A DNA stretch of 64,000 bases from Saprospira grandis DSM 2844 (lineage in GTDB: Bacteria; Bacteroidota; Bacteroidia; Chitinophagales; Saprospiraceae), in the NCBI RefSeq assembly GCF_000275825.1, contig NZ_JH719942.1:1060988-1124987 (forward strand), given 5' to 3'. A program made the position numbers and the translations under genes. Numbering within the stretch: position 1 is the stretch's first letter; each line of letters opens with the position of its first letter. Positions 3,522-48,530 of this stretch are shown piece by piece. Below the pieces are notes generated by a model, which saw only the letters and a program-made list of their open reading frames with translations, made no database searches and was not told the DNA's origin.

Positions 3522-3523
3522 TT

Positions 3524-13532: not shown

Positions 13533-13604
13533 TTGGCCTACTAGGACTCGAACCTAGAATGACAGAACCAAAATCTGCTGTGTTACCAATTACACCATAG
13601 GCCA
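13533..13604 (-). tRNA. tRNA-Gln (anticodon UUG), copy 2 (tandem duplicate)
   Basis: Identical 72-nt sequence about 120 bp from copy 1. Confidence 0.7.
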
Positions 13605-17905: not shown

Positions 17906-18042
17906 AAACTAAAATAGAATGTAGAACACATTTAAGGACTAAGCCAACTGTGCTCAAGGGTAAATAATAGTAATACTATCAAGCACAAAGGTAATTAACT
18001 TAAATTAGTTAGTTTTCCTTTTTTTTTATTTTTTTATTGATT

Positions 18043-18934: not shown

Positions 18935-19105
18935 GGGAGAGATTGGAGGCGGCGAAGCCGCCCCGGCCGCAGGCCGAATGGCCCAGCGCTGCGGAGGGGT
19001 GGCCGAAGGCCAGACCGAGCCGCCTTGGCGGCGAAGGGCCGAACAGCCTTGTGAGCCCCGCAGCATAGCGGCGGCCGCCCCAAAATGAAGGGCGGCCGCG
19101 GGCCC
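18935..19105. repeat. GC-rich interspersed repeat
   Basis: ggcggcgaagccgcc...gcagcatagcggcggccgccccaaaa. Confidence 0.6.
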
Positions 19106-19978: not shown

Positions 19979-19984
19979 CTGTAC

Positions 19985-20968
19985 TTAATAATTTTGGATA
20001 TGCAAGAGGACCAGGGTTTGGTTGAGCAGGATGTAGCCTACTTCACCAAAGGTAAAGGGTCCTTCATAATTGCCTAGCTGTTCGCCATCTAATTTAAAGT
20101 TCAGATAATTCACGATACAATTGCAGGCTGTAATGGCGGGGGAATTGGGCATTTCTTTACGGAAAGCCTGGGGATTATAATCTACTGTTTTGGCCAAATG
20201 ATAGACTTGGTCTGTAGAAACGGGGGCATAAAAATAGACTATTTTTTCCTCTACTCGTTGGATAGTGGTGTTAATCAGGGCTCCGGAATAGTTGGAAATC
20301 AGGGGTAGGCTTCCGTCTATGCCCTTCCTTTTACAATAATGTGCAAAATTTTGTTTTTCGCCATTGATCAGGGCTTCGCTGGCTTGAAAATCGGTAGTTA
20401 AGAACTGAATATCGTCATCTTGGCCTTCTTCGTAGGGATTATAGATTTCGATTTCGGCATACTGTGCTGCGGGCAATTCGACATGCATAAGGACCGCTCG
20501 GTTCTTCATTTTTTCTGCTTTTGGGCCATAATAGGCAGCGGGCAGATGGCTGGGGTCGGCTTCTAGTTGTCGGCCAGTGATCCAGCCTAGAATGGGTTGG
20601 TCGTAGAGTCTATCATATTGGCCAATATCTAGGGCATAGGCCTTATGCACTTCTGAAAAAGCGGGCAGTGCAATATAGCTAAAGCCATTTTCTGGGCGAT
20701 CGTCCAGTAGTTGTTCCAGTTCTTGGGCCGAGTAGCTTTTGATTTCGGCTTTTAGGGCCAGATCGCTCAGATTAGAGACAAAAAGGCGGTTAAGATCTTT
20801 TTGCGCTCCTTCTCGGCTCATGAAGTAGGGCGTACTTCCGCCCAGCCATTGGCCGGCGGGCAGTTGGTCTAGTAAGCGTTGGCTACCTGCGATCAGCAGT
20901 ATTTGGCCAGATTCAATTAGTGCTTGGGTTTCTTTTAGGGAGAGGAGTTGATTTTGAAGCTTAGCCAT
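19985..20968 (-). CDS. uncharacterized cytoplasmic protein, tandem paralog 3 of 3
   Basis: 327 aa. About 75% identical to paralog 2 over long runs (LPAGQWLGG..PYFMS, FVSNLS.LALKAEIKSYSAQE). Confidence 0.6.
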   Translation of the reverse strand: MAKLQNQLLSLKETQALIESGQILLIAGSQRLLDQLPAGQWLGGSTPYFMSREGAQKDLNRLFVSNLSDLALKAEIKSYSAQELEQLLDDRPENGFSYIALPAFSEVHKAYALDIGQYDRLYDQPILGWITGRQLEADPSHLPAAYYGPKAEKMKNRAVLMHVELPAAQYAEIEIYNPYEEGQDDDIQFLTTDFQASEALINGEKQNFAHYCKRKGIDGSLPLISNYSGALINTTIQRVEEKIVYFYAPVSTDQVYHLAKTVDYNPQAFRKEMPNSPAITACNCIVNYLNFKLDGEQLGNYEGPFTFGEVGYILLNQTLVLLHIQNY

Positions 20969-21071
20969 ATTGTTCTATTGTTAAGTTAGAAAATGGCCTA
21001 TTGTGTTTATTGCTTAATTTTGCTCAAGGAACAAAGTTCTTCAAAAAGATAGTGGGTTAGTGTAATCGTTT

Positions 21072-22049
21072 TTACTTATCCTGAATATAGAGCAGGACCA
21101 GCGTTTGGTTGAGTAAAAGGTAGGCAATTTCGCCAAAGGTAAATGGCCCGCCATAGTTGGCCAGCTTTACGCCATTCAATTGAAAATTGAAATAGATAGA
21201 AATGCAATTAAAGGCTGTTTGGGCGTTTTCATGGGGCATTTTATCTAAGAACGCATTAGGGCTATACCTAATTTCCTTGGCCCAATAATAAATTTGGTCG
21301 GTAGATACTGGGCCATAAAAATAGACTCGATTTTCTTCAATCCGTTCAATATCGATATTGACCAAAGCGCCAGAGTAATTAGCGAGCAGGGGGAGTTGGC
21401 CCTTAATGTTGTTGCTACGGCAATAGTGGGCAAAATTTTGTTTTTCGCCATTGATGAGGACCTCTGCGGCGGAGAAGTCATTTTCTAAGAACTCGATACG
21501 GTCGCCTTGGCCTTGTTCGTAGGGATTATAGATTTCGATTTCGGCATATTGGCTTTCGGGCAGTTCAATGTGCATCAATACGGCCTTATTGCTTAGGCAA
21601 CTAGCTGTTGGGCCATGATAAACGGCTGGAAACTGTTCATCTTTGGCCTCTAGGTCTTTTCCAGTAACCCAACCTAAAATTGGAGAGTCGTAGAGGCTTT
21701 CATATTGTCCAATTTCTATAGCATAGGCTTTATGGACCTCAGAAAAAACGGGCATAGCGATATAGCTAAAGCCATTTTTGGGCCGATCGGCCAGTAGTTG
21801 CTCAAACTCTTGGGCCGAATAGCTTTTAATTTCAGCTTTTAGGGCCAGATTGCTCAGGTTGGAGACAAAAAGATGGTCGAGATCTTTTTCTGCGCCGGCT
21901 TCACTCATAAAGTACGGAATAGTTCCCCCTAGCCATTGGCCTGCGGGCAACTGATCGAGTAATTCTTGGCTAGCGGCAATCAGCAAGAGCTCTCCGGCTT
22001 GAATGAGGCGGCAGGTTTCTTCTAAGGTTAATATTTGGTTGTTCGGCAT
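21072..22049 (-). CDS. uncharacterized cytoplasmic protein, tandem paralog 2 of 3
   Basis: 325 aa, the same family. Confidence 0.6.
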   Translation of the reverse strand: MPNNQILTLEETCRLIQAGELLLIAASQELLDQLPAGQWLGGTIPYFMSEAGAEKDLDHLFVSNLSNLALKAEIKSYSAQEFEQLLADRPKNGFSYIAMPVFSEVHKAYAIEIGQYESLYDSPILGWVTGKDLEAKDEQFPAVYHGPTASCLSNKAVLMHIELPESQYAEIEIYNPYEQGQGDRIEFLENDFSAAEVLINGEKQNFAHYCRSNNIKGQLPLLANYSGALVNIDIERIEENRVYFYGPVSTDQIYYWAKEIRYSPNAFLDKMPHENAQTAFNCISIYFNFQLNGVKLANYGGPFTFGEIAYLLLNQTLVLLYIQDK

Positions 22050-22086
22050 GAGCCATTTTGTTAGCGGTTAAGATATGTATGGCCAA

Positions 22087-23070
22087 CTATTCTGTTTTAA
22101 CATCTAGAATAACCATAGTTTGGTTCAGGACCAGATAGGCGATTTCGCCAAAAGTGAAGGGGTAATGGTAGCCTTTGGTGTAGTTTTCTTCTCCGCCCAA
22201 TTGCATAAAGTTAGCGATACAATTGTAGGCGACTAAGGTCGTTTCGGTTTTTGGGGGCAGTTTGGCCTTAAAAGCGGCTTGTCGATTTTCTATAGTTTTG
22301 GCAAAGCGGTACGTTTGGCTTTGAAAAACGGGAGCAGCAAAACTGACAGTTGTGGCAGCTTCTTCGGCCTGATAGATAGAGGTATTGAGTTGGGCACCGC
22401 CAAAATCTCCGACCAAGGGGTATTCCATATCAATTTGATGTTCTTGCAGATAGCTCAGAAAGTTTTGTTTTTCGCCATCAATCAAACAGTCCTCTACCTG
22501 ATAGCCATCTTCTAGGAATTGGATATTGGGGCCATCATTTTGTTCATAAATATTCACAATAGAGAGCTCTGCATATTGCTCTGCAGCAAGTTGGGCGTGC
22601 AGGGCCACAAGTTGGTCCGTATAGACCGCTCCATCTTGGCCATTCACCACTAGTGGTTGAGCGGCCTCGCCCCAAACAATACCTGTGACCCAACCTAGGG
22701 TAGGCACATCAAATAGCTTTGGGTTTTGGCTAATTTGCAAGGCATAATTGGCCTGTACTTCCTGAAAAGCGGGCATAAGTAAATAGCTAAAGCCATTTTC
22801 TGGACGATCGTCCAGCATTTGCTCCAATTCTTGAGCGCCATAGGCCTGAATGCTAAAATCTTGAATTTCAGTAGTCAGATCTGTCACAAAAACCTGCTCT
22901 CGGTTCAAAGCACCGCCCTCTTCAGTCATAAAGTAGGGAATGCTGCCGCCGATCCAGTTGCCTTTGGGCAAAGTTTTCAAAATTGGTCCATCTGCGGCAA
23001 CAACTAAGGTTCGGCCTTGCTCAATCCATTCTGCACAGGTTTTTTGGGAAATCAGTTGGTTTTTATTCAT
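22087..23070 (-). CDS. uncharacterized cytoplasmic protein, tandem paralog 1 of 3 (most divergent)
   Basis: 327 aa with shared motifs (LP.G.W.GG.IPYFM, GFSY...PAF.EV...YAL, GEKQNF..Y, PFTFGE..YL.LNQT.V.L). Confidence 0.55.
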   Translation of the reverse strand: MNKNQLISQKTCAEWIEQGRTLVVAADGPILKTLPKGNWIGGSIPYFMTEEGGALNREQVFVTDLTTEIQDFSIQAYGAQELEQMLDDRPENGFSYLLMPAFQEVQANYALQISQNPKLFDVPTLGWVTGIVWGEAAQPLVVNGQDGAVYTDQLVALHAQLAAEQYAELSIVNIYEQNDGPNIQFLEDGYQVEDCLIDGEKQNFLSYLQEHQIDMEYPLVGDFGGAQLNTSIYQAEEAATTVSFAAPVFQSQTYRFAKTIENRQAAFKAKLPPKTETTLVAYNCIANFMQLGGEENYTKGYHYPFTFGEIAYLVLNQTMVILDVKTE

Positions 23071-24111: not shown

Positions 24112-24252
24112 TATTTTTTGGGGCCTGCCGCCTTTGGCGGCCGGGCTGTGTCAGGGCTCGCAGGTCTGCTCGGCCCTGCAGGCTTTTTCGCTTCGCTTCA
24201 AAAGCCTTTGGTCTGCGGCTGCGCCGCCCCCTTATCCATCCCTAGGCCAATT
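24112..24252. repeat. GC-rich interspersed repeat
   Basis: ttttggggcctgccgcc...gggctgtgtcagggctcgcaggtctgctcggccctgc... Confidence 0.65.
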
Positions 24253-25015: not shown

Positions 25016-25185
25016 GGCGGCGAAGCCGCCGCAAAGGAGCGCAGCGACGCGGCTGAGGGGCTGTAGCAGGGCCGCCGCAGGCGGCAGACCGAGGCGCGCT
25101 AGCGCCGAAGGGCCGAGCAGACCTGCGAGCTGTGCAATGGCCCGACCCAAGGCCCAAAGGGCCGCAGGGGCAGCCCCAAAATAGC
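25016..25185. repeat. GC-rich interspersed repeat
   Basis: Same module set as 10503-10668 and 15330-15502. Confidence 0.7.
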
Positions 25186-28207: not shown

Positions 28208-31200
28208 TTAGCTCCCTTGTTGGTATTCATTACCACAGGTAGAAAGGGGAACGCGTTCGCCTTCTGCAGTAATAATATACAGGCGTTGGTTGCGTGGATC
28301 TCTTTCGGGATCATCGGTACCGATATATTTCTTCCATTCTTTATTAGAAAGGTTGCGGCGCACCATAGCGCAGAGTTGGCTAGCGTAGCGGAACATATCC
28401 ACCTCATAGATTTTCACTTCTCCATTAGCGCAGCCGGTAAGGACTTTTTGTCCATCATGAGTAAAGGCCACAGAGAGGACCCAATCTTCATGATCTTCTA
28501 GGCGAACGGGCTGGAACTTAGGATCTTTGAAGGGGAACTCCTCTTCATTATCATAGTTCTCATAGGCTTGATTCCAGATTTGCCAAAGTGTAGCTCTTTT
28601 ATCGAGGCTACCCACCACGAGCATAGTTCCATCATCAGAGAAGCTGAGGTCACTAATTTTGGCGCTATGATAAACCAGGCGTTCGGGAACATAGCGGTTG
28701 CCGTCTTGGTCCAGACCATTTTTATAATGGTAGATATCAAAGATGAGCAAAGAGCCATCTTGGTAGCCTACGGCAACAAATCGGCCAGTGGGGCTAATAG
28801 CTACAGCGGTAGCATTGCGTTTGTTGTAGGGGTTTTCTAGTTTAAAATCCTCTTGGCCCGACTTAATATTCCAGATAGAGACATCAGGAGATCCTCCGGC
28901 GCCAGCCACATGTTGTCCATCGGCAGAAACGGCAATAGAAGTCACTCGGTAAGGCGTACGTTCTACAATAGGAGTAACTTCTCCTTTCATATTGGTATAC
29001 TTGATACTGCGGTCATCTCCGGTAGAGATTACGGCATTGCCCGTAGGCAAGAAAGCGAGGTCCCAAACGCGGCGGCCACGGTGAACGTCTACCTTAAGCA
29101 TGCGTTCTTCTTTGGCCACATCCCAAATTTCCATATAATCTTCATCGCCAGCACGGACCAAGAACTTTCCTTCGGCACTCATATCCATACAACGATAAAC
29201 TCGGTTATTGCGGTTGCGGGTAAGCACCTGCGGAGCGCCTGCGGTTTTTTGTTCCTCTTTGCTATCAAAAACCTGTAGGGGCCATTTAAACAGCCAGCCA
29301 TCAGAACCTGTAGTATAGACTTTTTGGTCAAATTCTCCTTCTGCGGTAGAGACTACAATAGATCTCATGGCACCAAGGTGCGAGAGGCCATCAGGAGCTA
29401 CATTCAGGCTATTAAAGTCTGGGTTATCTCCTACCCCCTGCATTTTATCTATTGCCTTATAAAGGGCTTCATAGATATAGGCATCATGTTCTTTTCCCCC
29501 ATTTACCCGATTCAGCTCAAAGGCTTCTTTAGCCAAAAGTGCTTCTAGGTCGGGTTCTTCTACTTTCCAAGACTTTACGGCTACAGACTGGGCCAAAGAA
29601 AGGCCTTTTGTCATAATCGCCTTAAGGCGTTCTTCTTGGGCTCTACGTTCTGACTTCATGGCATCGCGGCGAGCTTGTTCGGCCCTGAGCTTAGCAATTT
29701 CTGCTCTTTGGCGTTCCAATTCTGCCGTATCCAGAGCGATTAGGGCCTTTGAGCGAGCCTGATTGGCGGCTCTAGACTTCAATTCAGCAATATCTGAAGA
29801 GCGAATTGCCTTTTCGGTAGCCTGACGGGCCAAGAAACTTTCTCTTTGGGCACGATTAGCATTTACCTTGGCCATATAGCGGCTCTCATTGGCTCTTTGC
29901 TTGGCTATTTCTGCCTGATAAGCAGCTAGGCGAGCCTCTTTTTCTTTGCGGCCAGCCACCTGAGCCGATCGGCGGGCACTATCTAAGGCCACACCGGCCA
30001 AGAGCAATAGAATAAGACAGATGGCCCCAAAGCCCAAAGAAAGATAAGTAATCAGCATACGGGTTTTCCGTTTGCGGTCATCATCTTCCCGCTTATCTCT
30101 AAGTTTTTTATCAGAGGCTTCATGACTTTTGAGTAAAAAGTCAATCGTTTCATCATAAGTAGTATTATACCGAGAAGCCCAAGCCTTAGTAGGCGCTAGG
30201 CGCTCAGGATGTTCCTCATCATAAGTATGCGGTTCATACCATTTGAGGCCCAAACTCAATTCGGGTTCTACCCAAAGTGCCCCCTTCCCTTCAAAGTAAA
30301 GGGCAGCGGCAGTAGATAAGCGAGTATAGGTTTCAGCGGCCTCATGCTCTTCTTCAGCCCAATGCGCCAAACGATCCCAATAAGAAATTAAGCTTTCATG
30401 CGTAATACTAATTACGGTATCTAGCTCCAAATCATCCCGATTTGGGGGCGCCTGCAAAAAGCGGCGGTCCGCCCGAGAAAAGGCCACAATAACCGGAGCC
30501 AAACTCTCTATACTTTGGTCCGTCAACTTGCAAAGCTCGCCTACAGTAGCCACCCTACGACTAGCCGAACCATCGGCATTGCGCTCAGAAAGCGCCCGAA
30601 ACATTCGTTGACAAGTAACTTTTTGCTCTTCTGTTTTCAGCTTATTATAGGCCTCCTCGGCATGCACAGAAAGTGCCTCCTTAATAGTCCCTACATTCTC
30701 ATAATGCTTAATCCCCAAAGGAAGACTAGGGTCAGAATCTACCTCTACCCAATTATCCCAGACACGCATCATCAAATGCTGCAAACGAGGCAAATCGTCA
30801 AAGTCTTCTCCAATATCGGAAATCATGCGGCTCACTAGGTCCGGAGCAATACTCGCCCCCACCGCCTTAACCGGCATAATCATCACCTTCTTGAGCTCTT
30901 CTACCTTCATTTTCGGAATCAGAAACTGCCCATCGTTAATCGCCTCCGGCAAGCCCCTAAAATCCGTACAACGTCCAATATAATCCGAGCGCATCGTCAA
31001 TACAATATAAATAGGCGCTTCGCGCTGCCTAGATGCATTGAGCAATAAATTGACAAAGGTAGCCGCATCTTCCTGAGCCGCTGAAGAAGTTTTTGCAAAG
31101 GCAAAAATCTCTTCAAATTGGTCAATGACCACCATCAAATTGGCCCGCTCTACATCCGCATCTTTATACGCGTCTACCAAACCCAAACTCCCTCGGCGCA

Positions 31201-31567
31201 AGCTTTTCTCGACAATAGCCGGATAGTTAGGGTCCATCTTACTGTCAGGGTGCAAAACCCCTCTAGAAGCCAATTGACGACTCAAGTTTCCAATCGGATT
31301 ATTGCCAGGCTGACAAACCGCAATTCGCCAACTCTGCCCTGCCTGCCCCGCAAAACCATCTTTTAGCTTGGGGACCAAGGCCGAACGAACTAGCGAGGAC
31401 TTACCTCCACCTGCACCTCCTACCAACGCCAAAAAACGATTGCCACGAATTTTACGCAACAATTCATCAAGCTGCTTATTCCTTCCGAAAAAAAGCTCTC
31501 TTTCTTTGGCCTCATAAGGGCGCAGTCCAGGATAAGGTTCCTTAGTTAAAATTTCAAAGGATGCCAT
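28208..31567 (-). CDS. STAND-type P-loop NTPase - TM helix - coiled coil - WD40 beta-propeller protein
   Basis: N-terminus PYPGLRPYEAKERELFFGR...LVGGAGGGKSSL (Walker A). TM LITYLSLGFGAICLILLLLAGVAL at ~aa 500. A/R/E/Q-rich coiled coil of about 150 aa. C-terminal WD-like repeats (...ISTGDDRSIKY.., SIWNIKSGQ, LWQIWNQ). Confidence 0.65.
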   Translation of the reverse strand: MASFEILTKEPYPGLRPYEAKERELFFGRNKQLDELLRKIRGNRFLALVGGAGGGKSSLVRSALVPKLKDGFAGQAGQSWRIAVCQPGNNPIGNLSRQLASRGVLHPDSKMDPNYPAIVEKSLRRGSLGLVDAYKDADVERANLMVVIDQFEEIFAFAKTSSAAQEDAATFVNLLLNASRQREAPIYIVLTMRSDYIGRCTDFRGLPEAINDGQFLIPKMKVEELKKVMIMPVKAVGASIAPDLVSRMISDIGEDFDDLPRLQHLMMRVWDNWVEVDSDPSLPLGIKHYENVGTIKEALSVHAEEAYNKLKTEEQKVTCQRMFRALSERNADGSASRRVATVGELCKLTDQSIESLAPVIVAFSRADRRFLQAPPNRDDLELDTVISITHESLISYWDRLAHWAEEEHEAAETYTRLSTAAALYFEGKGALWVEPELSLGLKWYEPHTYDEEHPERLAPTKAWASRYNTTYDETIDFLLKSHEASDKKLRDKREDDDRKRKTRMLITYLSLGFGAICLILLLLAGVALDSARRSAQVAGRKEKEARLAAYQAEIAKQRANESRYMAKVNANRAQRESFLARQATEKAIRSSDIAELKSRAANQARSKALIALDTAELERQRAEIAKLRAEQARRDAMKSERRAQEERLKAIMTKGLSLAQSVAVKSWKVEEPDLEALLAKEAFELNRVNGGKEHDAYIYEALYKAIDKMQGVGDNPDFNSLNVAPDGLSHLGAMRSIVVSTAEGEFDQKVYTTGSDGWLFKWPLQVFDSKEEQKTAGAPQVLTRNRNNRVYRCMDMSAEGKFLVRAGDEDYMEIWDVAKEERMLKVDVHRGRRVWDLAFLPTGNAVISTGDDRSIKYTNMKGEVTPIVERTPYRVTSIAVSADGQHVAGAGGSPDVSIWNIKSGQEDFKLENPYNKRNATAVAISPTGRFVAVGYQDGSLLIFDIYHYKNGLDQDGNRYVPERLVYHSAKISDLSFSDDGTMLVVGSLDKRATLWQIWNQAYENYDNEEEFPFKDPKFQPVRLEDHEDWVLSVAFTHDGQKVLTGCANGEVKIYEVDMFRYASQLCAMVRRNLSNKEWKKYIGTDDPERDPRNQRLYIITAEGERVPLSTCGNEYQQGS

Positions 31568-32045: not shown

Positions 32046-33053
32046 ATGGCTAAGCGCAAAAAAAAGCCTGCATTTTCAAAAGAACAGTACCTCTCTTGGT
32101 ACGAATTGATGTATCTCACACGCAAATTTGAAGAGCAGTGTAATATTGTATACTATCAGAAAAAAATTCGTGGATTTCTCCACCTCTGTATTGGCCAAGA
32201 AGCCATCTACGCCGCTATGCAGTCGGCCTGCAGAAAAGAAGACTCTTGGATTACCGCCTACCGCGTACACGGTATGGCCCTAGCCGCAGGCATCTCCCCC
32301 AACGAAACTATGGCCGAACTCTACGGTAAAGCCACTGGCAACGTAAAAGGTAAAGGAGGCTCTATGCACTTCTTTAATGCCGAACGCAACTTTTATGGCG
32401 GCCACGGTATCGTGGGCGGCCAAATTGGCCTCGGTACCGGACTCGCCTTTGCCGATAAGTACAAAGGCAACGATAATGTCACCCTCGCCCTCTTCGGCGA
32501 TGGCGCATCTCGCCAAGGGATCCTACACGAAAGCTTTAATATGGCCATGACATGGAAACTTCCCGTCCTCTTTATTTGCGAAAATAATAAGTACGCTATG
32601 GGAACCTCTGTAGAACGTACCTCTAATGTGACTAATCTCCACATCTTGGGCGAAAGCTACAAAATGCCCAATAAAGCCATTAACGGCATGGATGTAGAAG
32701 TGCTCCACAACGAATTGAGCGAGGCCATCAACTATATCCGCCAAGGTAACGGCCCTATGCTTATCGAAATCGAAACTTACCGCTATAAGGGCCACTCTAT
32801 GTCAGACCCCGCTAAGTATCGAACCAAAGAGGAAGAAAAGGAATATAAAGAGAAGGACCCCGTAGGCCGCATAGAACACCTTCTGCTCGATAATAAAATG
32901 ATTACGGAAGAAGAATTGAAGGAAATTCAAAATCGCCTCAAAGAAAAAGTGAAGGCCGCTGTAGACTTTGCCGAAAATTCTCCTCTCCCCCAGCCCGAAC
33001 AGTTGTACGAGGATATGTACACCCAAGAAGATTACCCTTTTATTAAGGACTAA
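32046..33053 (+). CDS. pdhA: pyruvate dehydrogenase E1 component alpha subunit
   Basis: TPP-dependent E1 alpha motifs (...HLCIGQEA...GGHGIVGGQIGLGTGLAFA...LFGDGA...ICENNKYAMGTS...). Confidence 0.85.
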   Translation: MAKRKKKPAFSKEQYLSWYELMYLTRKFEEQCNIVYYQKKIRGFLHLCIGQEAIYAAMQSACRKEDSWITAYRVHGMALAAGISPNETMAELYGKATGNVKGKGGSMHFFNAERNFYGGHGIVGGQIGLGTGLAFADKYKGNDNVTLALFGDGASRQGILHESFNMAMTWKLPVLFICENNKYAMGTSVERTSNVTNLHILGESYKMPNKAINGMDVEVLHNELSEAINYIRQGNGPMLIEIETYRYKGHSMSDPAKYRTKEEEKEYKEKDPVGRIEHLLLDNKMITEEELKEIQNRLKEKVKAAVDFAENSPLPQPEQLYEDMYTQEDYPFIKD

Positions 33054-33109
33054 ATCTCTCCCTCAGAAACCCAAAGAGCAATGGATAACTATTTCTGTTG
33101 CTCTTTTTT

Positions 33110-33283
33110 TGTTTTGGGGCCTCCGCCTCGCTTCGCTCGTCGGCGCTACGCTTTGGGGCTCGCTATTCGCTCGGCCCTGCGCAGGCTCCGCCTGCTTGGT
33201 CTGGCCTGCGGCCACCCCGCCGCATCGCTAGGCCTGCGGCCCTTCGGGCCTGTAGATCGCAAAACACCAAACCTTTGGACCAA
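33110..33283. repeat. GC-rich interspersed repeat
   Basis: ttttggggcctccgcctcgcttcgctcg...tgcgcaggctccgcctgcttggtctggcctgcggccacc... Confidence 0.6.
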
Positions 33284-33319
33284 AAAAAGAGCGACTGAAA
33301 ACTTCAGTCGCTCTTTTTA
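33282..33319. terminator. bidirectional rho-independent terminator
   Basis: AAAAAAAG-AGCGACTGAA-aa-CTTCAGTCGCTCT-TTTTA. Confidence 0.6.
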
Positions 33320-33335
33320 ATGAAATGATGTCTAA

Positions 33336-34127
33336 TTATTCATCCCCATCATCATCTAAGTTCATCGCTGTAGATTGGCCCTTAGGCATCATGCTCGTAT
33401 CATCCCAGAGCTTAGATACCCAAAAGCGAAGTACCGCCTGTTTCTTCTCTTCCTTATCCAAGTACCCGTAATTTCCAGCTGTTTTTGCTTCTAGTCTGAA
33501 ATTGTTTTCTGCGCCCGTCCAACGGAAACTGATTTTCCGCCAAAACAAACCATAGCTTGCTTTTACATGCTTGACCACCCCTTGGCCATAAGTAGCCGTG
33601 GCAATTGCATAAGTAAGGGCATACTTCGCTCTTTTCTTTCGGCCAGCAGCATGGGCAATAATTTCAAAAGCCTGAACGCCCTCCAAATCTGAAACGATCG
33701 GGTGCCAGCGGCCATCGGCAGGGATTTCTCCTTGAATAAAAGTGCCTACCCGACCATTTGCTCCAAGCATGCCATTCACCTCTAGCTTAAAATTGGGCAA
33801 AGTGGTCCCGATCCCTACATTACCTCCCTTACGTAAGAAAAGAAGGCTTTCATTTTCGCCATCATTAAAACTGAGTCCTTCACTATGTGGAGTGGGGTTC
33901 ATAGAAATGCTAAAAGAGGCCTGAGGGTCTCGGATGCTTTGATAGAAGCTCATCAAGCGCTTATTTGGGCCCTGAGTGGCCAACATAAGGCCCTCAGTTG
34001 AACTTTGGGAAAAACCATCGTCTACTTTATTGACCGTAGAGTCGATAAGGTCGGCAAAGTTCACTTCAGTGGGGACCATCCCCCTTTTGAATAAATTTTT
34101 GAGTGTGCTACGCGTGAGTAAAGCCAT
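33336..34127 (-). CDS. phage tail-fibre-like protein (candidate eCIS fibre)
   Basis: The motif GNVGIGTTLPNFKLEVNG is common in tail-fibre and collar proteins. It is the last gene of the contractile-system cluster. Confidence 0.35.
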   Translation of the reverse strand: MALLTRSTLKNLFKRGMVPTEVNFADLIDSTVNKVDDGFSQSSTEGLMLATQGPNKRLMSFYQSIRDPQASFSISMNPTPHSEGLSFNDGENESLLFLRKGGNVGIGTTLPNFKLEVNGMLGANGRVGTFIQGEIPADGRWHPIVSDLEGVQAFEIIAHAAGRKKRAKYALTYAIATATYGQGVVKHVKASYGLFWRKISFRWTGAENNFRLEAKTAGNYGYLDKEEKKQAVLRFWVSKLWDDTSMMPKGQSTAMNLDDDGDE

Positions 34128-34199
34128 TGAGTTGGATACTTTAACTTGAGCTTGTTTAAATTTTTTAGTCAGCAGCTAGACTAAGGCAAAAAAAAATGC

Positions 34200-35185
34200 T
34201 GCAAAGCGCTTATTATTGTTGATTACGACAAAAACAAAAAAAGGCTTTGCAACATGGTTGTGAATTTATCAAAAGAATTTATTACGGAAAAAATATTAGC
34301 ATTTTTTCCCGAAAAAAAATTGGCTCGAAAAACCAAAGCGCCTCTGTGGCAAATTGTTAAAGCGATAATTTATAGGCTTAAAACAGGTTGTCAGTGGAGA
34401 GAATTACCGATACAATCTTTTTTTGACGAAGTTCTAATTTGCTGGCAAACAGTATATTACTACTTCAATAGCTGGTCCGAGTCTGGTATTTGGCAAAAAG
34501 TGTGGATCCAATTTCTAGCCCATGAAAAATCTTGTTTAGATTTATCTAGTATACAGCTTGACGGAAGTCATACCCCAGCGAAAAGAGGGGGCGAAGCTGT
34601 GGGTTATCAGGGCCGAAAAAAGTCCAAAACCACAAATGCTCTCTTTCTCACAGATAAAAATGGGCTGCCAATCGCTATGTCTCCGCCTTTTGCGGGAAAC
34701 CATAATGATTTGTTTGAAATCGAGAGTCATTTCCAAAAAATGCTTGCCGATCTGCAGCTTTCAGACATCTCTCCTGATGGTTTATTTATGAATGCTGATG
34801 CAGGGTTTGATAGCAAAAAACTTAGAGAAAACTGCCAAAAAATGGGCATTATCCCTAATATTGACCACAACAAAAGAAATAGAAAAAAAGCTTATTATCA
34901 AGATATTATAGATGAGGAACTTTACAAAGAACGCTTTTCTGTTGAGCGAACTAACGCATGGATTGACGCATTCAAAATTTTACTCATTCGTTTTGAAAGA
35001 AAAGCCGACAACTGGGCGAGTCTACACTATTTAGCCTTTATACTTATTTTCCTAAAACGAAATTTTTAAACAAACTCTTAAATGTAAAGGCGGGTGAATG
35101 CCATCAAATTTAAAAAATTGTTTGGAAAAGGCGCAGTCAAAACGATTTTATAATTTAGATTTTCTTAATAACGCCTTTATTTATT
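34200..35185 (+). mobile_element. IS5-family insertion sequence (approximate ends)
   Basis: A single DDE transposase ORF with imperfect terminal inverted repeats (AAAGCGCTTATTATTG / CAATAAATAAAGGCGTTATT). It sits inside the injection-system locus. Confidence 0.45.
34254..35069 (+). CDS. IS5-family DDE transposase (DUF4096 N-terminus)
   Basis: N-terminus ...WQIVKAIIYRLKTGCQWRELP... is typical of IS5/IS1182-type transposases. Confidence 0.7.
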   Translation: MVVNLSKEFITEKILAFFPEKKLARKTKAPLWQIVKAIIYRLKTGCQWRELPIQSFFDEVLICWQTVYYYFNSWSESGIWQKVWIQFLAHEKSCLDLSSIQLDGSHTPAKRGGEAVGYQGRKKSKTTNALFLTDKNGLPIAMSPPFAGNHNDLFEIESHFQKMLADLQLSDISPDGLFMNADAGFDSKKLRENCQKMGIIPNIDHNKRNRKKAYYQDIIDEELYKERFSVERTNAWIDAFKILLIRFERKADNWASLHYLAFILIFLKRNF

Positions 35186-35191
35186 GTTTTT

Positions 35192-35395
35192 TGGGCTTTG
35201 GCGAGGCGGCGCAGCCGCCTGCGAGCGCAGCGAGCCATGGCCCAGCGCTGCGGAGTGGGTGGCCGTAGGCCAGACCGAGTTTTTTGAGCGCAGCGAAAAA
35301 AACGAAGGGCCGAGCAGGCTTGCGAGCCCCGCAGCATAGCGGCGGCCGCCCCTACTAAAAAGGGCGGCCGCGGGCCCCAAAAAATGGATCTTATA
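35192..35395. repeat. GC-rich interspersed repeat
   Basis: ggcgaggcggcgcagccgcc...gcagcatagcggcggccgcccc...aagggcggccgcgggccccaaaaaa. Confidence 0.6.
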
Positions 35396-35460
35396 GCACT
35401 AAAAAAGGCCCAAAAGTGCGTAGACTTCTGGGCCAAATCGGTTATGTTTTATACTATTGT

Positions 35461-38400
35461 TTAATCGTCTAATTCTCGTTCTTCGGTCATTACAAAGTCG
35501 CCATCAAGCATCATATTGTCTAGGCCAGCTTTGGCTGGAGACTGGAAGGCCACCTCGTCGAGGAGATAGAGTGGATTTTTCTCGAAAGGAATGAGGACAG
35601 ACCAAGGCGTGGTAGCCTTGAGCAAGGGAGAAGAAGAATTATCGATAGCGGTATCACCTACATCGAAGCCCTCGCCGCTGGGGAAGACCTGCACGGCAGA
35701 AAACTTAGTGACAAAATCGACATATTCTCTTTTTTCGATAAAGCTAAGGAGGACATCCTTCGCCATTGTGCCGCCTAATTCAAGTTCTCTTTGGCCGCCA
35801 TACATCCAGGGGCAGACAAAGTCCATAATATCCTTATTCAATTTTTTGAGGAAGGTACCGTTGTTCATACCTTTTTGGAAGCGGAGACCGCCGGCCACTT
35901 TCACTCTTTCGTAGATAGGATTACGGAGTTTGATATCGACAAAAGGCGAAGCTAGCGGGATGAGATAATCGCGGATAGCCTCTAGGGTGGCGTTATTGAC
36001 CATGGGGAGTCGGCCTTGGTGAGAAGCCTTAATTCTGGGTACAACAACGAGGACCACCTGTCCTTTTTCGATGAACTCTTCATTGCCAATATGCGTCACA
36101 CATTTAACTTGGAAGATATCGGGAAACTGGTCGAGGATAAGGCGTTCATAATCCCAGGCAGAGACGGCTCTACCTTTATGGCGGAGGCGTTCGCTGCTTC
36201 GGGTATAGAATTCTTTTTTATTTTCGCCGGGTCGGCCTTCAAAGGAGCCAAAAGGTTGTTGGACCGAGCGAATTTGGACCAATGGGCTAGCCAGATTTTT
36301 AATCTTATTGGGGGCTAATTTTTCTTCTAAGTGTTTCACCTCCTCTTCGGGGTTTCCGGCCCAGGTTGCCGAGATGGCTTGGGTAGAGAGGTGCAAAATG
36401 GTGGGCATACGGCTAGCGTCGCCACGGAGCGAGGCGCGCAGCCAGAACTTTCCTTTTTTGAAGATGGTATTATTATCTGAAATATCTCTGGGGATATCGA
36501 AAGTGATAATTCCGGAGTTATTAAAGAAATTGGTGGTATCGTTTAGGATTTGGGTTTGCGAGAACTCCTTCCATTCGTCATTAACGAGGAAGCTCCAAAC
36601 GATTTCGGCCTGTTTTGCTTCGCTGCTTCGGCCCTTCATCATAGAAAAATAGTCTTGATTTTCTTTGAGTTCGAAGTAGATAGAGAGCGTAGCGGGTGGA
36701 TTAAAATCTTTGACTCCGAGGAAGAGGTAAGCGTCTTCATCGTAGGCGGGAAGCAGAGTGGGTTTAACTGGGCGGCCTTGAGAGAAGTTGCGCATCACAC
36801 CGAAGGGGTGGATATGGAACAACTCTTCAGCCACAGCTCCAGAGCTATTTACGGTACCGATAGACATGATATTGACTTGGGCCGTAGCGGTATAGTCGAT
36901 ACTCATATTTCGGATAACGGGTGTAAAAGGTTGGTTGGGGAGTTTCTTTTTCTCCTTCGTTTTGGGGTCTGCATTATGGGCAGCCACATCGGCGTAGAGA
37001 TTGGGAAACTCATCGTGGGCGAAAGCCGAGGGCGGGTTGGTCAATTCCATGCGGAAATAGCCCGTTTGGGTTTCGCTGGTATAGGTATCAATTTGTTTAA
37101 GGTTGGCCTGAGGTTCTAGGTCAAAGAGTTTAAGGTCGATATGATTTAGGCAGGTAGTCTTACTAATGCCATGAACATTATCTTCATCTTGTTCGAAGAG
37201 GAAATACTCTTTAACATTGTTCTTATTTTTGGGGAAGAACTCCCCTTCTTGGAGGGCCGACAATTTGATTCGGTAATCTTCATTGCGGATACCGAGGCCA
37301 TATTCTCGATAATAGCCACGGAGGCCTTTTGTATTATCGGGTAGATTATGCCAATTGATATTGATTTTGAGGTTAGTCAGTTCCTTTTTGAAGAGCTCGG
37401 TTTTTCCGATAAGGAGATAAGAGCCTAGCTTTGGGGTAGGGCCAAAAGCTTGGAAAGGGATACTACCTTCTAGTTGGCCGTATTCATTGCTTAGGTTGAG
37501 GCGTTTGATTCCTTTGACTTCAACATCAATGTTAATGCGTTCTAGGCTTAGCTCTTTAAGGAAAGAGTAAGAGTAGGTCACATTTTCGTTTTTGTGGAGG
37601 ACCTTCATAACGGGAAGGCTAGTATCGAAATCGGGGCCTAAGACATTGGCATTATAGCCTACGATAGCGGGGGCATTGGCGGATACGGTAGCGAGCAGGC
37701 TAAACTCGGGGATATTCCAATTTTCTGGGGGAAGGAGTTCGCAGCTTTTGGCTTCGATCCAACCTTCTTCTCCAGAGAGGACTAACTTCAGGCTATTTTT
37801 AAAGACCTTAGAGAAGGCATCTTCTTTAGAGAGGCCTTGATTTCGGCTAATATCCTTAATCAGAAGATTTAGGGTATACATAGAAGACTTATCGAATCGC
37901 ATGCGCAACTTGATACTACGGTGGCCTTCTTCCATTTCGAGGATAGGGGCAGCCATGGCCCAGCCTACTTCGGCATAGACCATTTGGCGTTCATCGGAGG
38001 CTTTTTCGAGTAATTCTTCTCCGAAGGAGGGCCATTCCTCTTCATTATTGATAAAGCGTTTGCCTAGGCCATCTCTAGAGTTGGCGATAGGGGCGGCATA
38101 CATATTTGTGATAAGGCGATAAGAGCTCCCGATACCGATTTTGGGATTTTTGCTCACAAAAAGCGTCTTGACTTCATCTATTTTAGCTTGGTTTAGTTCT
38201 ATGCCATAATCGGTTTTATAGCGAATAGCTTTACCGTCTTCATCGACGCCAGCGTCTAGGAGTGTGCCTGCGGGCAGGAAGAAGCTATCAATATGTTTAG
38301 CTAAGTTGAAATAGACATTCACCTGATCGGGTTGCAGGCCTCTTTCTTGCATTTTGAGCACATCGTAATAATAGAAATCGAGATGCTTTTCGGTGAGGGT

Positions 38401-39231
38401 ATTCAGGTGGTCCTGATTATGTTTAAAGAGTTTCACGAAAGCGATAAAGAGCGCCAAATCGGGGCGGTGATCATCTTTTTCTTTGAGTGATTTCTCTAGA
38501 TATTTTGGTGCTTCTTGTACGATATAAGAGAGCACGCTATAGAAGGTCCGAAACTGTAGGCGGATCTTTTTGGTATAGTCTTGAATTTTGAAGTTGGCTC
38601 TGGGGTCTTCTGCCTCGATAGCGCGGGCAGAGAGCAACTTTTTAGAGGGGAACCAGATACTATGAAAATGCTCTTCAATTTCATTGGGGCTATAGGTACC
38701 TGTTTGGTGAAACTCGAGGAAGCGATCTTGTTCTAGGAGTTCGATTAAATTGGAAGAGAGTTGCTGTTTGATGGCGTTCTCTAATTCGTTCTCTAGTTCA
38801 TCGGTATCGCCGGGTTGGAGGGTATTCATTTTGAGGGCATGCACATACCAGTCATTAAACTGTTTGGCCATGTCGAACACCTGTGTATAGAGGGCCTTAA
38901 GCGCTTCTAGGCGGCCTGTGGTGCGGGCTGCATTTTCTAGCTCGGTAATATATTTGGCGTGTTCCTGCTCAATTTTTTTAAGATCGGTTGCAATAATAGA
39001 GGCCAAGAACACCGAGAGGTCATTGCGCAAAAAGCGCGACCAATCTCCTGCGGGGGAATTAGTTTGGTCATAAAACTGGACCATTTCGGCATATTTGGCC
39101 GAAAAGGCGAGGAGGTCACTAGTAGAGCGTTCATCTACCTTAATATATTCTGGGATGAGAGCTTTGAGCAATCGTTGGCTCTGCGTTACGCCATTCCAGG
39201 ACAGGCTAGATTTATTCTTTTTGGTACTCAT
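35461..39231 (-). CDS. large baseplate protein, gp6/gpJ-like (Afp11-like), 1256 aa
   Basis: Sits directly downstream of the gp25-like wedge gene. Its size and C-terminal region fit baseplate-J-like proteins, but the assignment is not motif-proven. Confidence 0.45.
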   Translation of the reverse strand: MSTKKNKSSLSWNGVTQSQRLLKALIPEYIKVDERSTSDLLAFSAKYAEMVQFYDQTNSPAGDWSRFLRNDLSVFLASIIATDLKKIEQEHAKYITELENAARTTGRLEALKALYTQVFDMAKQFNDWYVHALKMNTLQPGDTDELENELENAIKQQLSSNLIELLEQDRFLEFHQTGTYSPNEIEEHFHSIWFPSKKLLSARAIEAEDPRANFKIQDYTKKIRLQFRTFYSVLSYIVQEAPKYLEKSLKEKDDHRPDLALFIAFVKLFKHNQDHLNTLTEKHLDFYYYDVLKMQERGLQPDQVNVYFNLAKHIDSFFLPAGTLLDAGVDEDGKAIRYKTDYGIELNQAKIDEVKTLFVSKNPKIGIGSSYRLITNMYAAPIANSRDGLGKRFINNEEEWPSFGEELLEKASDERQMVYAEVGWAMAAPILEMEEGHRSIKLRMRFDKSSMYTLNLLIKDISRNQGLSKEDAFSKVFKNSLKLVLSGEEGWIEAKSCELLPPENWNIPEFSLLATVSANAPAIVGYNANVLGPDFDTSLPVMKVLHKNENVTYSYSFLKELSLERINIDVEVKGIKRLNLSNEYGQLEGSIPFQAFGPTPKLGSYLLIGKTELFKKELTNLKININWHNLPDNTKGLRGYYREYGLGIRNEDYRIKLSALQEGEFFPKNKNNVKEYFLFEQDEDNVHGISKTTCLNHIDLKLFDLEPQANLKQIDTYTSETQTGYFRMELTNPPSAFAHDEFPNLYADVAAHNADPKTKEKKKLPNQPFTPVIRNMSIDYTATAQVNIMSIGTVNSSGAVAEELFHIHPFGVMRNFSQGRPVKPTLLPAYDEDAYLFLGVKDFNPPATLSIYFELKENQDYFSMMKGRSSEAKQAEIVWSFLVNDEWKEFSQTQILNDTTNFFNNSGIITFDIPRDISDNNTIFKKGKFWLRASLRGDASRMPTILHLSTQAISATWAGNPEEEVKHLEEKLAPNKIKNLASPLVQIRSVQQPFGSFEGRPGENKKEFYTRSSERLRHKGRAVSAWDYERLILDQFPDIFQVKCVTHIGNEEFIEKGQVVLVVVPRIKASHQGRLPMVNNATLEAIRDYLIPLASPFVDIKLRNPIYERVKVAGGLRFQKGMNNGTFLKKLNKDIMDFVCPWMYGGQRELELGGTMAKDVLLSFIEKREYVDFVTKFSAVQVFPSGEGFDVGDTAIDNSSSPLLKATTPWSVLIPFEKNPLYLLDEVAFQSPAKAGLDNMMLDGDFVMTEERELDD

Positions 39232-39769: not shown

Positions 39770-39905
39770 AGCGGGCAGTTGCATTGGCCTAGCGCTGCGG
39801 AAGGGTGGCCGTCAGGCCAGACCGAAGCCCGCAGGGCTGAAGGGCCGAGCAGACTTGCGAGCCCTGTAGCATAGCGCCGCAGCTTTGCTGCGGAGGCCCC
39901 AAAAA
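39770..39905. repeat. GC-rich interspersed repeat lodged between the PAAR and gp25 genes
   Basis: gcctagcgctgcggaagggtggccgtcaggccagaccgaagcc...gaagggccgagcagacttgcgagccctgtagcatagcgccgcag...ggaggccccaaaaa. Confidence 0.6.
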
Positions 39906-42321: not shown

Positions 42322-42472
42322 TTTTTGGGGGCCTGCGGGCTTCGCCCGCCGCTATGTTGCAGGGCTCGCAAGCCTGCTCGGCCCTTCGCAAAATTTCGCT
42401 ACGCTCATTTTGCTTGGTCTGGCCCTACGGGCCACCCTTCCACAGCGCTAGGCCAAAAACGGCTTCGCTTAA
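42322..42472. repeat. GC-rich interspersed repeat inside the contractile cluster
   Basis: ttttgggggcctgcgggcttcgcccgccgctatgttgcagggctcgcaagcctgctcggccc... Confidence 0.6.
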
Positions 42473-47339: not shown

Positions 47340-47482
47340 AGCCCAACTACAGCCGCCCCATTTGGCCTAGCGATGTGCAGGGGGGGCCGCAGGCCAGACC
47401 GAGCAGGCAAAGCCTGCGCAGGGCCGAGCGAACAGCGAGCCCCGAAACGTAGCGCCTGCCGAAGGCAGGAGGCCCCAAACCT
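47340..47482. repeat. GC-rich interspersed repeat inside the contractile cluster
   Basis: gcctagcgatgtgcagggggggccgcaggccagaccgagcagg...gccgagcgaacagcgagccccgaaacgtagcgcctgccgaaggcaggaggccccaaa. Confidence 0.6.
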
Positions 47483-48357: not shown

Positions 48358-48530
48358 ATTTTTTGGGGCTGCCCCTCCTTTCAGTCGGGTCGGGCTGTGT
48401 CGCAGCTCGCAGGTCTGCTCGGCCCTGCGCTTTTTTCGCTTCGCTCAAAAAGCTGGGTCTGGCCTTCGGCCACTGCTATCCATCCCTCAGCCTGCGGCGG
48501 CTTTGCCGCCTGCTCGCCGCAAAAGGACCT
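48358..48530. repeat. GC-rich interspersed repeat
   Basis: Same architecture as 3524-3686, with ...cctgcggcggctttgccgcctgctcgccgc substituted. Confidence 0.65.

What the first reader, a model, noticed from the sequence alone, without database searches (positions are those of the whole stretch)
34141..35190. IS5-family insertion sequence inside the contractile-system locus, separating the baseplate gene from the fibre-like gene
A DDE transposase ORF (DUF4096-type N-terminus, QWRELP) on the opposite strand lies between the 3' end of the 1256-aa baseplate gene and the 5' end of the fibre-like gene. Imperfect terminal inverted repeats are visible. The flanking ORFs are intact. Still, the roughly 1 kb insertion plus a GC-rich repeat probably uncouples the fibre-like gene, the presumed specificity determinant, from operon transcription. 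It is either recent IS activity or a regulatory switch.
Basis: seen in the sequence. Interest (0 to 1): 0.5.

Follow-up and report, generated by a model that had tools for sequence, protein, structure and literature searches.

The report
Strain-specific IS5 insertion upstream of fibre gene
A 930-bp mobile element of a common type (IS5 family) has jumped, in this one strain of the predatory bacterium Saprospira grandis, into the short leader between the promoter and the start of the fibre-like last gene of its contractile injection system. This is ordinary mobile DNA, of some interest because similar elements switch the same weapon off and on in a related bacterium.

Summary
The element is a 930-bp IS5-family insertion sequence at 34148-35077, not 34141-35190. 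It has 18-bp imperfect terminal repeats (15/18) and one intact 271-aa DDE transposase gene. A 2-bp target duplication (TT) was established against the empty site in S. grandis str. Lewin.

The window is S. grandis DSM 2844. The same transposase protein is encoded at three or more other loci of that genome. Copies 97-98% identical from metagenomes end at exactly the same bases. None of 49 related loci, including strain Lewin, carries an IS between cis11 and the fibre-like gene, so the insertion is strain-specific and probably recent.

The interpretation needs changing. The GC-rich repeat is not part of the event. It belongs to a family of 21 copies in the window and sits at the same place in IS-free strains. 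The fibre-like gene was probably already a separate transcription unit, because cis11 ends with an intrinsic terminator. A 116-bp AT-rich region with a Bacteroidota -7 box (TAAATTTG) lies about 45 nt upstream of the ATG. The IS sits inside that leader, 20 nt from the ATG.

The likely effect is reduced expression, which is inferred and not shown. The "switch" idea has a precedent in Aureispira but is untested here. Interest is modest.

The parts
34148..35077 (+). Complete IS5-family insertion sequence, 930 bp
   Evidence: The ends are defined by three independent lines. First, homology of the termini to multi-copy relatives. Second, 97-98% identical copies in other contexts that end at the same bases. 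Third, the break in collinearity with the IS-free loci L072, L083 and L136.
34148..34165 (+). Left terminal inverted repeat, GAGCTTGTTTAAATTTTT
   Evidence: (pair I4). In related elements the same terminus reads GAGGTTGTTTAAA or GAAGTTGTTTAAA.
35060..35077 (+). Right terminal inverted repeat, AAATTTTTAAACAAACTC. It is 15/18 complementary to the left one and contains the transposase stop codon.
34146..34147 (.). Left copy of the 2-bp target-site duplication (TT)
   Evidence: The empty site of strain Lewin reads ...TTTAAC TT AAATGG.... The window reads ...TTTAAC TT [IS] TT AAATGT....
35078..35079 (.). Right copy of the 2-bp target-site duplication (TT)
34254..35069 (+). Transposase gene: single ORF, 271 aa, DUF4096 + DDE_Tnp_1. 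D103, D182 and E231 are invariant among relatives.
   Evidence: The protein is identical to EJF52633.1 and to three further accessions of S. grandis DSM 2844.
33336..34127 (-). Fibre-like gene (SapgrDRAFT_0900, 263 aa), the last gene of the contractile-system cluster, intact
   Evidence: It follows cis11 in 49 related loci. The AlphaFold model (pLDDT 79) has Bdellovibrio fibres, phage tailspikes and fibres and T4 gp9 as best PDB matches, with low TM-scores.
34128..34147 (-). 20-nt stub of the original 5' leader left attached to the fibre-like gene
   Evidence: 20/20 identical to strain Lewin.
35080..35195 (-). Conserved AT-rich regulatory region of the fibre-like gene, now displaced 930 bp from it
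   Evidence: 98% identical to Lewin and 95% to L072 and L083. Neighbouring coding DNA is 85-94% identical and the other intergenic DNA 74-93%.
35105..35112 (-). Putative -7 promoter box TAAATTTG (Bacteroidota consensus TAnnTTTG)
   Evidence: TTTTTTAAATTTG lies 43-50 nt upstream of the ATG in L072, L083, L074 and the window minus the IS (45 nt in Lewin L136, counted from the alignment), although the L074 spacer is otherwise unrelated. Its function is inferred.
35238..35384 (+). One copy of the GC-rich interspersed repeat. It pre-dates the IS and is not part of it.
   Evidence: It is present at the same place in L072, L083 and L136.
35407..35434 (-). Intrinsic-terminator-like hairpin (11 pairs followed by TTTTTT), 27 nt downstream of the cis11 stop codon
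   Evidence: It is conserved in Lewin, L072 and L083.
35461..39231 (-). cis11-type baseplate gene (SapgrDRAFT_0902, 1256 aa), intact
   Evidence: Orthologues are 1254-1256 aa.

Best explanation
This is a complete, potentially active copy of a multi-copy IS5-family insertion sequence of Saprospira grandis DSM 2844. It is 930 bp long, with one transposase ORF and 18-bp imperfect terminal repeats. It transposed, with a 2-bp TT duplication, into the 5' leader of the fibre-like last gene of the rhapidosome / T6SS-iv-type contractile-system cluster, 20 nt upstream of the ATG. That gene appears to have its own transcription unit. cis11 ends with a terminator, and a highly conserved AT-rich region with a -7 box lies about 45 nt upstream of the ATG in IS-free strains. 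The IS now separates promoter and gene by 930 bp and is oriented so that transposase transcription converges on that promoter. The most likely consequence is a reduced or lost supply of the fibre-like protein, through a leader of about 970 nt that is untranslated and antisense to the transposase. Such a leader is exposed to Rho-type polarity and transcriptional interference. The structural genes themselves are untouched. Shown: element identity, borders, duplication, copy number, strain specificity, intact neighbours, and conservation of the terminator and upstream region. Inferred: that the conserved motif is the promoter, and the direction and size of the effect on expression.
For: Transposase family. 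Borders and inverted repeats. Source genome and gene identities: (EJF52632-52635 of S. grandis DSM 2844). Other copies: the same 271-aa protein carries four accessions in DSM 2844, and there are near-identical (P0242, P0248) and partial copies. Empty site and 2-bp duplication: (str. Lewin, CP002831.1), with L072, L073 and L083. Uniqueness: cis11 and the fibre-like gene are adjacent in 49 related loci, with spacers of -9 to 164 bp in non-Saprospira relatives or 388-393 bp in Saprospira, against 1333 bp here. Terminator after cis11. Conserved upstream region: 95-98% identity against 85-94% for coding DNA. The -7 box is conserved in position, including in L074 whose spacer is otherwise unrelated. 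L084 and L085 have a hairpin followed by TACTTTTG. There is no exact TAnnTTTG on the gene's strand inside the IS. No terminator-like site was found on that strand inside the IS. The promoter consensus TAnnTTTG is quoted from PMC6927303.
Against: There are no expression data. TAnnTTTG is a weak motif: 73 occurrences in the window against 59 expected. The nearest TTTG upstream is 25 nt away, not the usual 19-21 or so. The promoter assignment therefore rests on conservation alone. No intrinsic terminator was detected inside the IS on the gene's strand, so read-through could still deliver the gene. Several one-mismatch -7-like boxes lie in the IS left end, and the closest named relative, ISBf6, is credited with driving a downstream gene. 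The 2-bp duplication differs from the 3-bp duplications of 8/8 related copies in MAGs.
Confidence: 0.7

Rival explanations
1. Neutral passenger. Transcription from the native promoter, or from cis11, simply reads through the 930-bp element, and the fibre-like protein is made at near-normal levels. The insertion then has no phenotype.
For: No terminator-like hairpin on the minus strand between 35077 and 34148. Both flanking ORFs and the 20-nt stub before the ATG are intact. The cluster tolerates four copies of the GC-rich repeat between other genes.
Against: A leader of about 970 nt that is untranslated and meets convergent transposase transcription is the classical setting for IS polarity. This rests on general knowledge and was not tested here. 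The strong conservation of the 116-bp region and of its distance to the ATG suggests that spacing matters.
Confidence: 0.2
2. Promoter delivery. The left end of the IS carries an outward-facing promoter that now drives, or constitutively de-regulates, the fibre-like gene. This is how Bacteroides IS elements are said to drive nim, cfiA and erm genes.
For: The closest named IS is ISBf6 (49.6% aa identity, full length). On the B. fragilis nimE plasmid it lies in the same geometry: transposase divergent, with the IS left end 26 nt upstream of the nimE ATG compared with 20 nt here. nim genes are reported to need such an upstream IS with promoter sequences (PMC10967509 and PMC6927303).
Against: There is no exact TAnnTTTG on the outward strand anywhere in this IS. 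Only one-mismatch boxes that lack the TA or the final G are present. ISBf6 has an exact box (TATCTTTG) 160 nt upstream of nimE. Unlike nimE, this gene already has a conserved upstream region of its own.
Confidence: 0.12
3. Reversible on/off switch of the contractile system. As in Aureispira, the insertion arose and is kept in nutrient-rich culture, and is lost by excision under starvation or prey-dependent growth. It would then be a regulatory state, not an accident.
For: In Aureispira sp. CCB-QB1 (same family), ISAursp1-3 inserted into cis14 and cis11 abolish T6SS-iv assembly and killing, and excise under starvation (bioRxiv 10.1101/2024.01.29.577165). DSM 2844 is a culture-collection strain. 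In another cultured strain, WH(T), the same gene is split by a frameshift into 113-aa and 172-aa ORFs.
Against: Here the IS does not interrupt a coding sequence. There is no evidence of excision or of polymorphism at this site. The fibre-like gene has not been shown to be needed for firing. This reading can be true together with the best explanation.
Confidence: 0.15
4. Dead relic or not a mobile element, for example a domesticated transposase gene.
For: The inverted repeats are imperfect (15/18). The duplication is only 2 bp, which alone would be weak evidence. There is no second copy in the window.
Against: The ORF is intact and D103, D182 and E231 are conserved. The protein is identical at four loci of the genome. 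Copies 97-98% identical occur in different contexts. A clean empty site exists in strain Lewin.
Confidence: 0.02

Closest known systems
IS5 family insertion sequences, short single-ORF type (IS1031 / IS427 / ISL2 groups of ISfinder)
   Same: DDE transposase with DUF4096 and DDE_Tnp_1, above the NCBIfam IS5 cutoff. Length is about 0.9 kb. The terminal repeats begin with GAG or GAA. The duplications are short and AT-rich: 2 bp here and 3 bp in 8 related copies. A single ORF with 3-nt target duplications is described as typical of the IS1031 group (PMC2516522). Bacteroidota elements of 860-990 bp in these groups are listed in PMC3196728.
   Different: The subgroup could not be assigned because ISfinder is not available here. 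The duplication at this site is 2 bp, not 3 bp. No ISfinder name is known to me for this element.
ISBf6 of Bacteroides fragilis (nimE plasmids such as pBF388c and pBFS01_2)
   Same: It is the closest named element (49.6% aa over 99% of the protein). Its termini are similar (GAAGTGATTTAAAC). Its placement is the same: the left end lies a few tens of nt upstream of a host gene's ATG, with the transposase divergent.
   Different: Only about 50% identical. ISBf6 has an exact TAnnTTTG box on the outward strand and is credited with promoter delivery. This IS has none, and the host gene has its own conserved upstream region.
ISAursp1-3 insertions in the Aureispira T6SS-iv cluster (Lien et al., bioRxiv 10.1101/2024.01.29.577165)
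   Same: Same bacterial family and the same kind of contractile-system cluster. In both cases an endogenous multi-copy IS adds a copy inside the cluster.
   Different: The Aureispira insertions interrupt cis14 and cis11 coding sequences, and their phenotype and reversibility were shown. Here the insertion is in a leader, and nothing is known about phenotype or excision. The families of ISAursp1-3 could not be retrieved.

Membership tests
IS5 family insertion sequence | DDE transposase of the IS5 type | tested here: met
   Pfam DUF4096 and DDE_Tnp_1. NCBIfam NF033580 at 147 bits against a cutoff of 110. D103, D182 and E231 are invariant in an alignment of 12 relatives. Their assignment as the catalytic triad is by position only.
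IS5 family insertion sequence | Terminal inverted repeats at the exact ends of the element | tested here: met
   18-bp repeats, 15/18 complementary. The ends coincide with those of independent copies and with the empty site.
IS5 family insertion sequence | Short target-site duplication flanking the element | tested here: met
   A 2-bp TT, established against the Lewin empty site. Related copies have 3-bp duplications.
IS5 family insertion sequence | Several copies at unrelated sites (mobility) | tested here: met
   Four accessions with the identical protein, plus variants and fragments, in DSM 2844. Copies 97-98% identical have different flanks in metagenomes. The DNA of the other DSM 2844 copies could not be read.
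IS1031 / IS427 / ISL2 subgroup of IS5 | Subgroup-specific transposase signature and clustering in ISfinder | not testable with these tools
   Only the general traits fit: single ORF, about 0.9 kb, 2-3-bp duplication.
IS-mediated T6SS-iv off/on switch (Aureispira type) | Endogenous IS inserted within the contractile-system gene cluster | tested here: met
   The cluster is Pvc16_N, sheath, three gp19-type tube genes, VgrG, PAAR, gp25, cis11, IS, fibre-like gene.
IS-mediated T6SS-iv off/on switch (Aureispira type) | Interruption of the coding sequence of a structural gene | tested here: not met
   The insertion lies in the leader, 20 nt upstream of the ATG. Both neighbouring genes are full length.
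IS-mediated T6SS-iv off/on switch (Aureispira type) | Loss of assembly and killing, and restoration by excision under starvation | not testable with these tools
   This needs culture experiments.
IS-borne promoter activation (Bacteroides nim / cfiA / erm type) | IS end immediately upstream of the gene's start codon | tested here: met
   20 nt here and 26 nt for ISBf6-nimE, in the same orientation.
IS-borne promoter activation (Bacteroides nim / cfiA / erm type) | Outward-facing consensus promoter (TAnnTTTG) within the IS | tested here: not met
   No exact match on the minus strand between 34148 and 35077. Only one-mismatch boxes are present.

The most novel reading that the evidence does not exclude
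The insertion is a naturally occurring example, in a second genus, of IS-based switching of the ixotrophy weapon. It would act by cutting the fibre-like gene off from its conserved control region, not by breaking a gene. Together with the independent frameshift of the same gene in the type strain WH(T), it would mean that cultured Saprospira strains recurrently shed this one component. That would mark the fibre-like protein as the costly or counter-selected part, possibly the trigger or targeting part, of the system.
Probability: 0.2. Interest if true: 0.5.

Novelty: new member of a known kind. Interest (0 to 1): 0.3.

Why it matters
Taken alone this is routine. The gene is already annotated as an IS5-family transposase in the public records of S. 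grandis DSM 2844. It matters in two modest ways.

First, anyone using DSM 2844 to study rhapidosomes, T6SS-iv or ixotrophy should know about the insertion. The strain carries an IS between the fibre-like gene and its conserved upstream region, and strains Lewin and CCB-QB6 do not, so the strain may be atypical.

Second, it offers a cheap test of whether the IS-based switching described in Aureispira extends to Saprospira and to regulatory regions. The analysis also showed that the fibre-like gene probably has its own, unusually conserved control region. That region is a better handle on how the system is regulated than the IS is.

Tried and rejected
1. Exact-protein look-ups of the window's transposase and fibre-like protein, and of the DSM 2844 transposases P0243, P0248 and P0155, returned nothing. 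The other genomic copies of the IS could therefore not be read, and their duplications could not be tabulated.

2. The single genome-contig scan did not contain the source genome. Its best hits were 64-65% identical. They still served to define family termini and 3-bp duplications.

3. I first expected a 3-bp duplication. The flanks CTT and TTA do not match. The more distant empty sites, L072 (88% nt) and L083 (84% nt), were ambiguous because of local indels. Only strain Lewin resolved it as 2 bp.

4. The flanks of metagenomic copies L076 and L079 show no matching duplication, and L080 shows ATA/ATA. Assemblies of a 930-bp repeat may be chimeric, so these were not used.

5. The sigma-70-type promoter scan was disregarded, because Bacteroidota use a different consensus.

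6. Rfam searches of the whole window and of 33000-35600 found nothing relevant.

7. The supplement of the Aureispira paper did not hold the IS families or the cis gene table. The two S. grandis genome papers are not in the library.

8. The idea that the GC-rich repeat belongs to the IS or arrived with it was rejected.

9. A C-over-G bias in the antisense IS RNA, as a hint of Rho loading, was checked and is weak (174 C against 163 G). It is not used as evidence.

Full report
**What is there.** The region holds an ORF at 34254-35069 (+ strand, 271 aa). It lies between a 263-aa ORF (33336-34127, -) and a 1256-aa ORF (35461-39231, -).
- The 271-aa protein matches Pfam DUF4096 and DDE_Tnp_1. It exceeds the curated cutoff of NCBIfam NF033580, 'IS5 family transposase' (147 against 110 bits).
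- In an alignment with 11 relatives, D103, D182 and E231 are invariant.
- The surrounding minus-strand genes form a contractile injection system cluster. In order they are Pvc16_N, an unassigned 375-aa ORF, sheath, three gp19-type tube proteins, VgrG, PAAR, gp25, the 1256-aa baseplate protein and the 263-aa gene.
- Exact look-ups identify the window as Saprospira grandis DSM 2844. The genes are EJF52632.1 (SapgrDRAFT_0900, 263 aa), EJF52633.1 (the transposase), EJF52634.1 (SapgrDRAFT_0902, 'Baseplate J-like') and EJF52635.1 (gp25).
- Saprospira 'rhapidosomes' are regarded as T6SS-iv-type structures. The long baseplate protein corresponds to Cis11 (bioRxiv 10.1101/2024.01.29.577165).

**Borders of the element.** The best inverted repeat is 34148-34165 against 35060-35077, 15/18 complementary. 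Four lines of evidence show that these are the true ends.
- Related elements occur in several identical copies in Saprospiraceae MAGs. They end in GAAGTTGTTTAAAAA and its complement, which is homologous to the termini here. All are flanked by perfect 3-bp duplications (8 of 8).
- Eight metagenomic copies, 97-98% identical and sitting in different contexts, lose similarity to the window exactly at 34148 and 35077.
- The orthologous loci of close relatives are collinear with the window on both sides and lack precisely this segment (L072/L073, L083).
- S. grandis str. Lewin (CP002831.1, 92-94% nt identity) gives the cleanest empty site. It reads ...GGATACTTTAAC TT AAATGG..., against ...GGATACTTTAAC TT [930 bp] TT AAATGT... 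in the window.

The element is therefore 34148-35077 (930 bp), with a 2-bp TT duplication.

**Copy number and age.**
- There is no second copy in the 64-kb window.
- The identical 271-aa protein carries four accessions in DSM 2844. That genome also holds variants with 1-20 substitutions and a dozen fragments.
- The insertion is absent from strain Lewin. By consecutive gene numbering it is also absent from Saprospira sp. CCB-QB6 and strain WH(T).
- In 49 related loci cis11 is directly followed by the fibre-like gene. Spacers are -9 to 52 bp in distant relatives (two are longer, at 79 and 111 bp), 34-164 bp in intermediate ones, and 388-393 bp in Saprospira. In the window the spacer is 1333 bp.

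The insertion is strain-specific and, given the identical copies, probably recent.

**The GC-rich repeat is a separate matter.**
- The segment at 35238-35384 is one of 21 copies of a 120-170-bp GC-rich repeat in the window. Nineteen lie between the ORFs of at least 120 aa that I tabulated, often within a few nt of a stop codon. Two (22-146 and 10540-10668) overlap one of those ORFs.
- Four copies lie between other genes of the same cluster.
- The copy next to the IS is at the same position in the IS-free Lewin, L072 and L083 loci. It is absent from more distant relatives such as L074.
- It therefore pre-dates the IS and is not evidence for uncoupling.

**What the IS actually separates.** Read in the direction of the genes, the IS-free arrangement has five parts.
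- The cis11 stop codon comes first.
- An 11-pair hairpin followed by TTTTTT comes next (35434-35407). It is conserved in Lewin, L072 and L083.
- The GC-rich repeat follows.
- A 116-bp AT-rich stretch (35195-35080) follows the repeat.
- About 20 nt and the ATG complete the arrangement.

The AT-rich stretch is 98% identical to Lewin and 95% identical to L072 and L083. The flanking coding DNA is only 85-94% identical, and the other intergenic parts 74-93%.

The stretch contains TTTTTTAAATTTG, which matches the Bacteroidota -7 consensus TAnnTTTG (consensus as quoted in PMC6927303). The box lies 43-50 nt from the ATG in the window with the IS removed, in L072, in L083 and in L074 (45 nt in Lewin), although the L074 spacer is otherwise unrelated. 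Other relatives (L084, L085) have a hairpin followed by TACTTTTG.

I infer that in this clade the fibre-like gene is transcribed from its own conserved promoter, downstream of a terminator. The motif alone is weak evidence (73 occurrences against 59 expected). The inference rests on conservation.

The IS lies 27 nt downstream of the box and 20 nt upstream of the ATG, that is, in the leader. The transposase gene points towards the promoter.

**Likely consequence.**
- A transcript from the native promoter would now need a leader of about 970 nt, antisense to the transposase gene, to reach the ATG.
- No terminator-like hairpin was found on that strand inside the IS. No exact -7 box lies on that strand inside the IS.
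- Reduced expression through polarity and convergent transcription is therefore the most likely outcome. This is inference, and near-normal read-through cannot be excluded.
- A third possibility comes from the closest named element, ISBf6 (49.6% aa). On B. fragilis nimE plasmids it lies in the same geometry, with a divergent transposase and its left end 26 nt upstream of the ATG. Such ISs are reported to supply the promoter for nim genes. This IS lacks the exact outward -7 box that ISBf6 has.

**The switch idea.** In Aureispira sp. CCB-QB1, which belongs to the same family, endogenous ISs inserted into cis14 and cis11 abolish T6SS-iv assembly and killing in rich medium, and they excise under starvation. 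The present case resembles this in place and agent but not in mode, because no coding sequence is interrupted. Nothing is known here about phenotype or excision. In the type strain WH(T) the orthologue of the same gene is annotated as two overlapping pieces (113 and 172 aa), consistent with a frameshift near codon 102. Two of four cultured strains thus carry a lesion at this gene. That is suggestive only.

**The fibre-like label.** The 263-aa protein has no Pfam or NCBIfam match. An AlphaFold model built from 34 homologues (pLDDT 79) finds Bdellovibrio fibre C-terminal domains, phage tailspikes and tail fibres and T4 gp9 as its best PDB matches. Probabilities are high but TM-scores low (0.22-0.30). 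Together with its conserved position after cis11, 'short fibre or baseplate-peripheral protein' is reasonable. 'Specificity determinant' is not shown.

**Verdict.** This is a genuine, recently inserted, strain-specific IS5-family element of a known kind, already annotated as a transposase in public records. Its position in the leader of the fibre-like gene of the T6SS-iv-type cluster gives it modest interest, mainly as a testable parallel to the Aureispira IS switch and as a caution for work with strain DSM 2844.

Noticed in passing
window 22-146, 3523-3658, 4473-4593, 6980-7112, 10540-10668, 13154-13326, 15372-15501, 18042-18180, 18978-19112, 24115-24250, 25051-25183, 33112-33234, 35238-35384, 39784-39905, 42322-42456, 47361-47479, 48360-48492, 53919-54042, 54331-54453, 59346-59476, 59763-59886: A GC-rich repeat of about 120-170 bp occurs 21 times in 64 kb, in both orientations. 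Nineteen copies are intergenic and often start within 0-12 nt of a stop codon; 22-146 and 10540-10668 overlap listed ORFs. Conserved blocks (GGCyrA, CAGACC, AGGGCCGAGC, GCGAGC, CCCCAAAA) alternate with hairpins whose stems differ between copies but stay complementary. 11 of 21 predicted pairs show changes on both sides, though possibly from only two or three subfamilies. There is no Rfam match. Among 140 fetched loci (738 kb) it occurs only in Saprospira-like ones. It could be a REP- or MITE-like element or a structured RNA, and deserves its own analysis.
   Followed up: partly
window 35080-35195 (minus strand): This non-coding AT-rich stretch upstream of the fibre-like gene is more conserved than the neighbouring genes: 98% against Lewin and 95% against relatives that are 84-88% identical overall. 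It contains two CGCCTTT repeats and one AAAGGCG complement besides the -7 box. That suggests a binding site or a structured leader, not only a promoter.
   Followed up: partly
orthologue of window 33336-34127 in S. grandis WH(T) (proteins P0265 = WBM75598.1 and P0268 = WBM75597.1): In the type strain the fibre-like gene is annotated as two ORFs of 113 and 172 aa. Both are 96-97% identical to the window protein and overlap near residue 100-102, which indicates a frameshift. This would be an independent lesion of the same gene in another cultured strain. A sequencing error was not excluded.
   Followed up: partly
window 48529-50706 and 50752-52638 (minus strand): Two large proteins (725 and 628 aa) with glycosyl hydrolase family 18 domains lie directly upstream of the Pvc16_N gene of the contractile-system cluster. 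Beyond them is an 894-aa SprB-repeat protein with a T9SS sorting domain at 54521-57205. They may be cargo or accessory proteins.
   Followed up: no
window 28208-31567 (minus strand): A 1119-aa nSTAND1 NTPase fused to WD40 repeats lies just beyond the E1 dehydrogenase gene that bounds the cluster. It is conserved at the same place in strain Lewin.
   Followed up: no
window 7957-8499, 8664-9206, 9449-9991, and 19106-23070 (minus strand): Two arrays of equal-sized neighbouring ORFs: three of 180 aa, and four of 290, 327, 325 and 327 aa. They look like tandem paralogues.
   Followed up: no
window 13413-13484 and 13533-13604 (minus strand): Two tRNA genes with identical Rfam scores lie 49 bp apart, next to a repeat copy that carries a 41-bp insertion (13154-13326).
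   Followed up: no
L140 (B. fragilis plasmid NZ_CP036548.1) 1355-1480: ISBf6, the closest named relative of this IS, has termini GAAGTGATTTAAAC and its complement. It sits 26 nt upstream of nimE with the transposase divergent, the same geometry as in the window. An exact TATCTTTG box faces nimE 160 nt from its ATG.
   Followed up: partly
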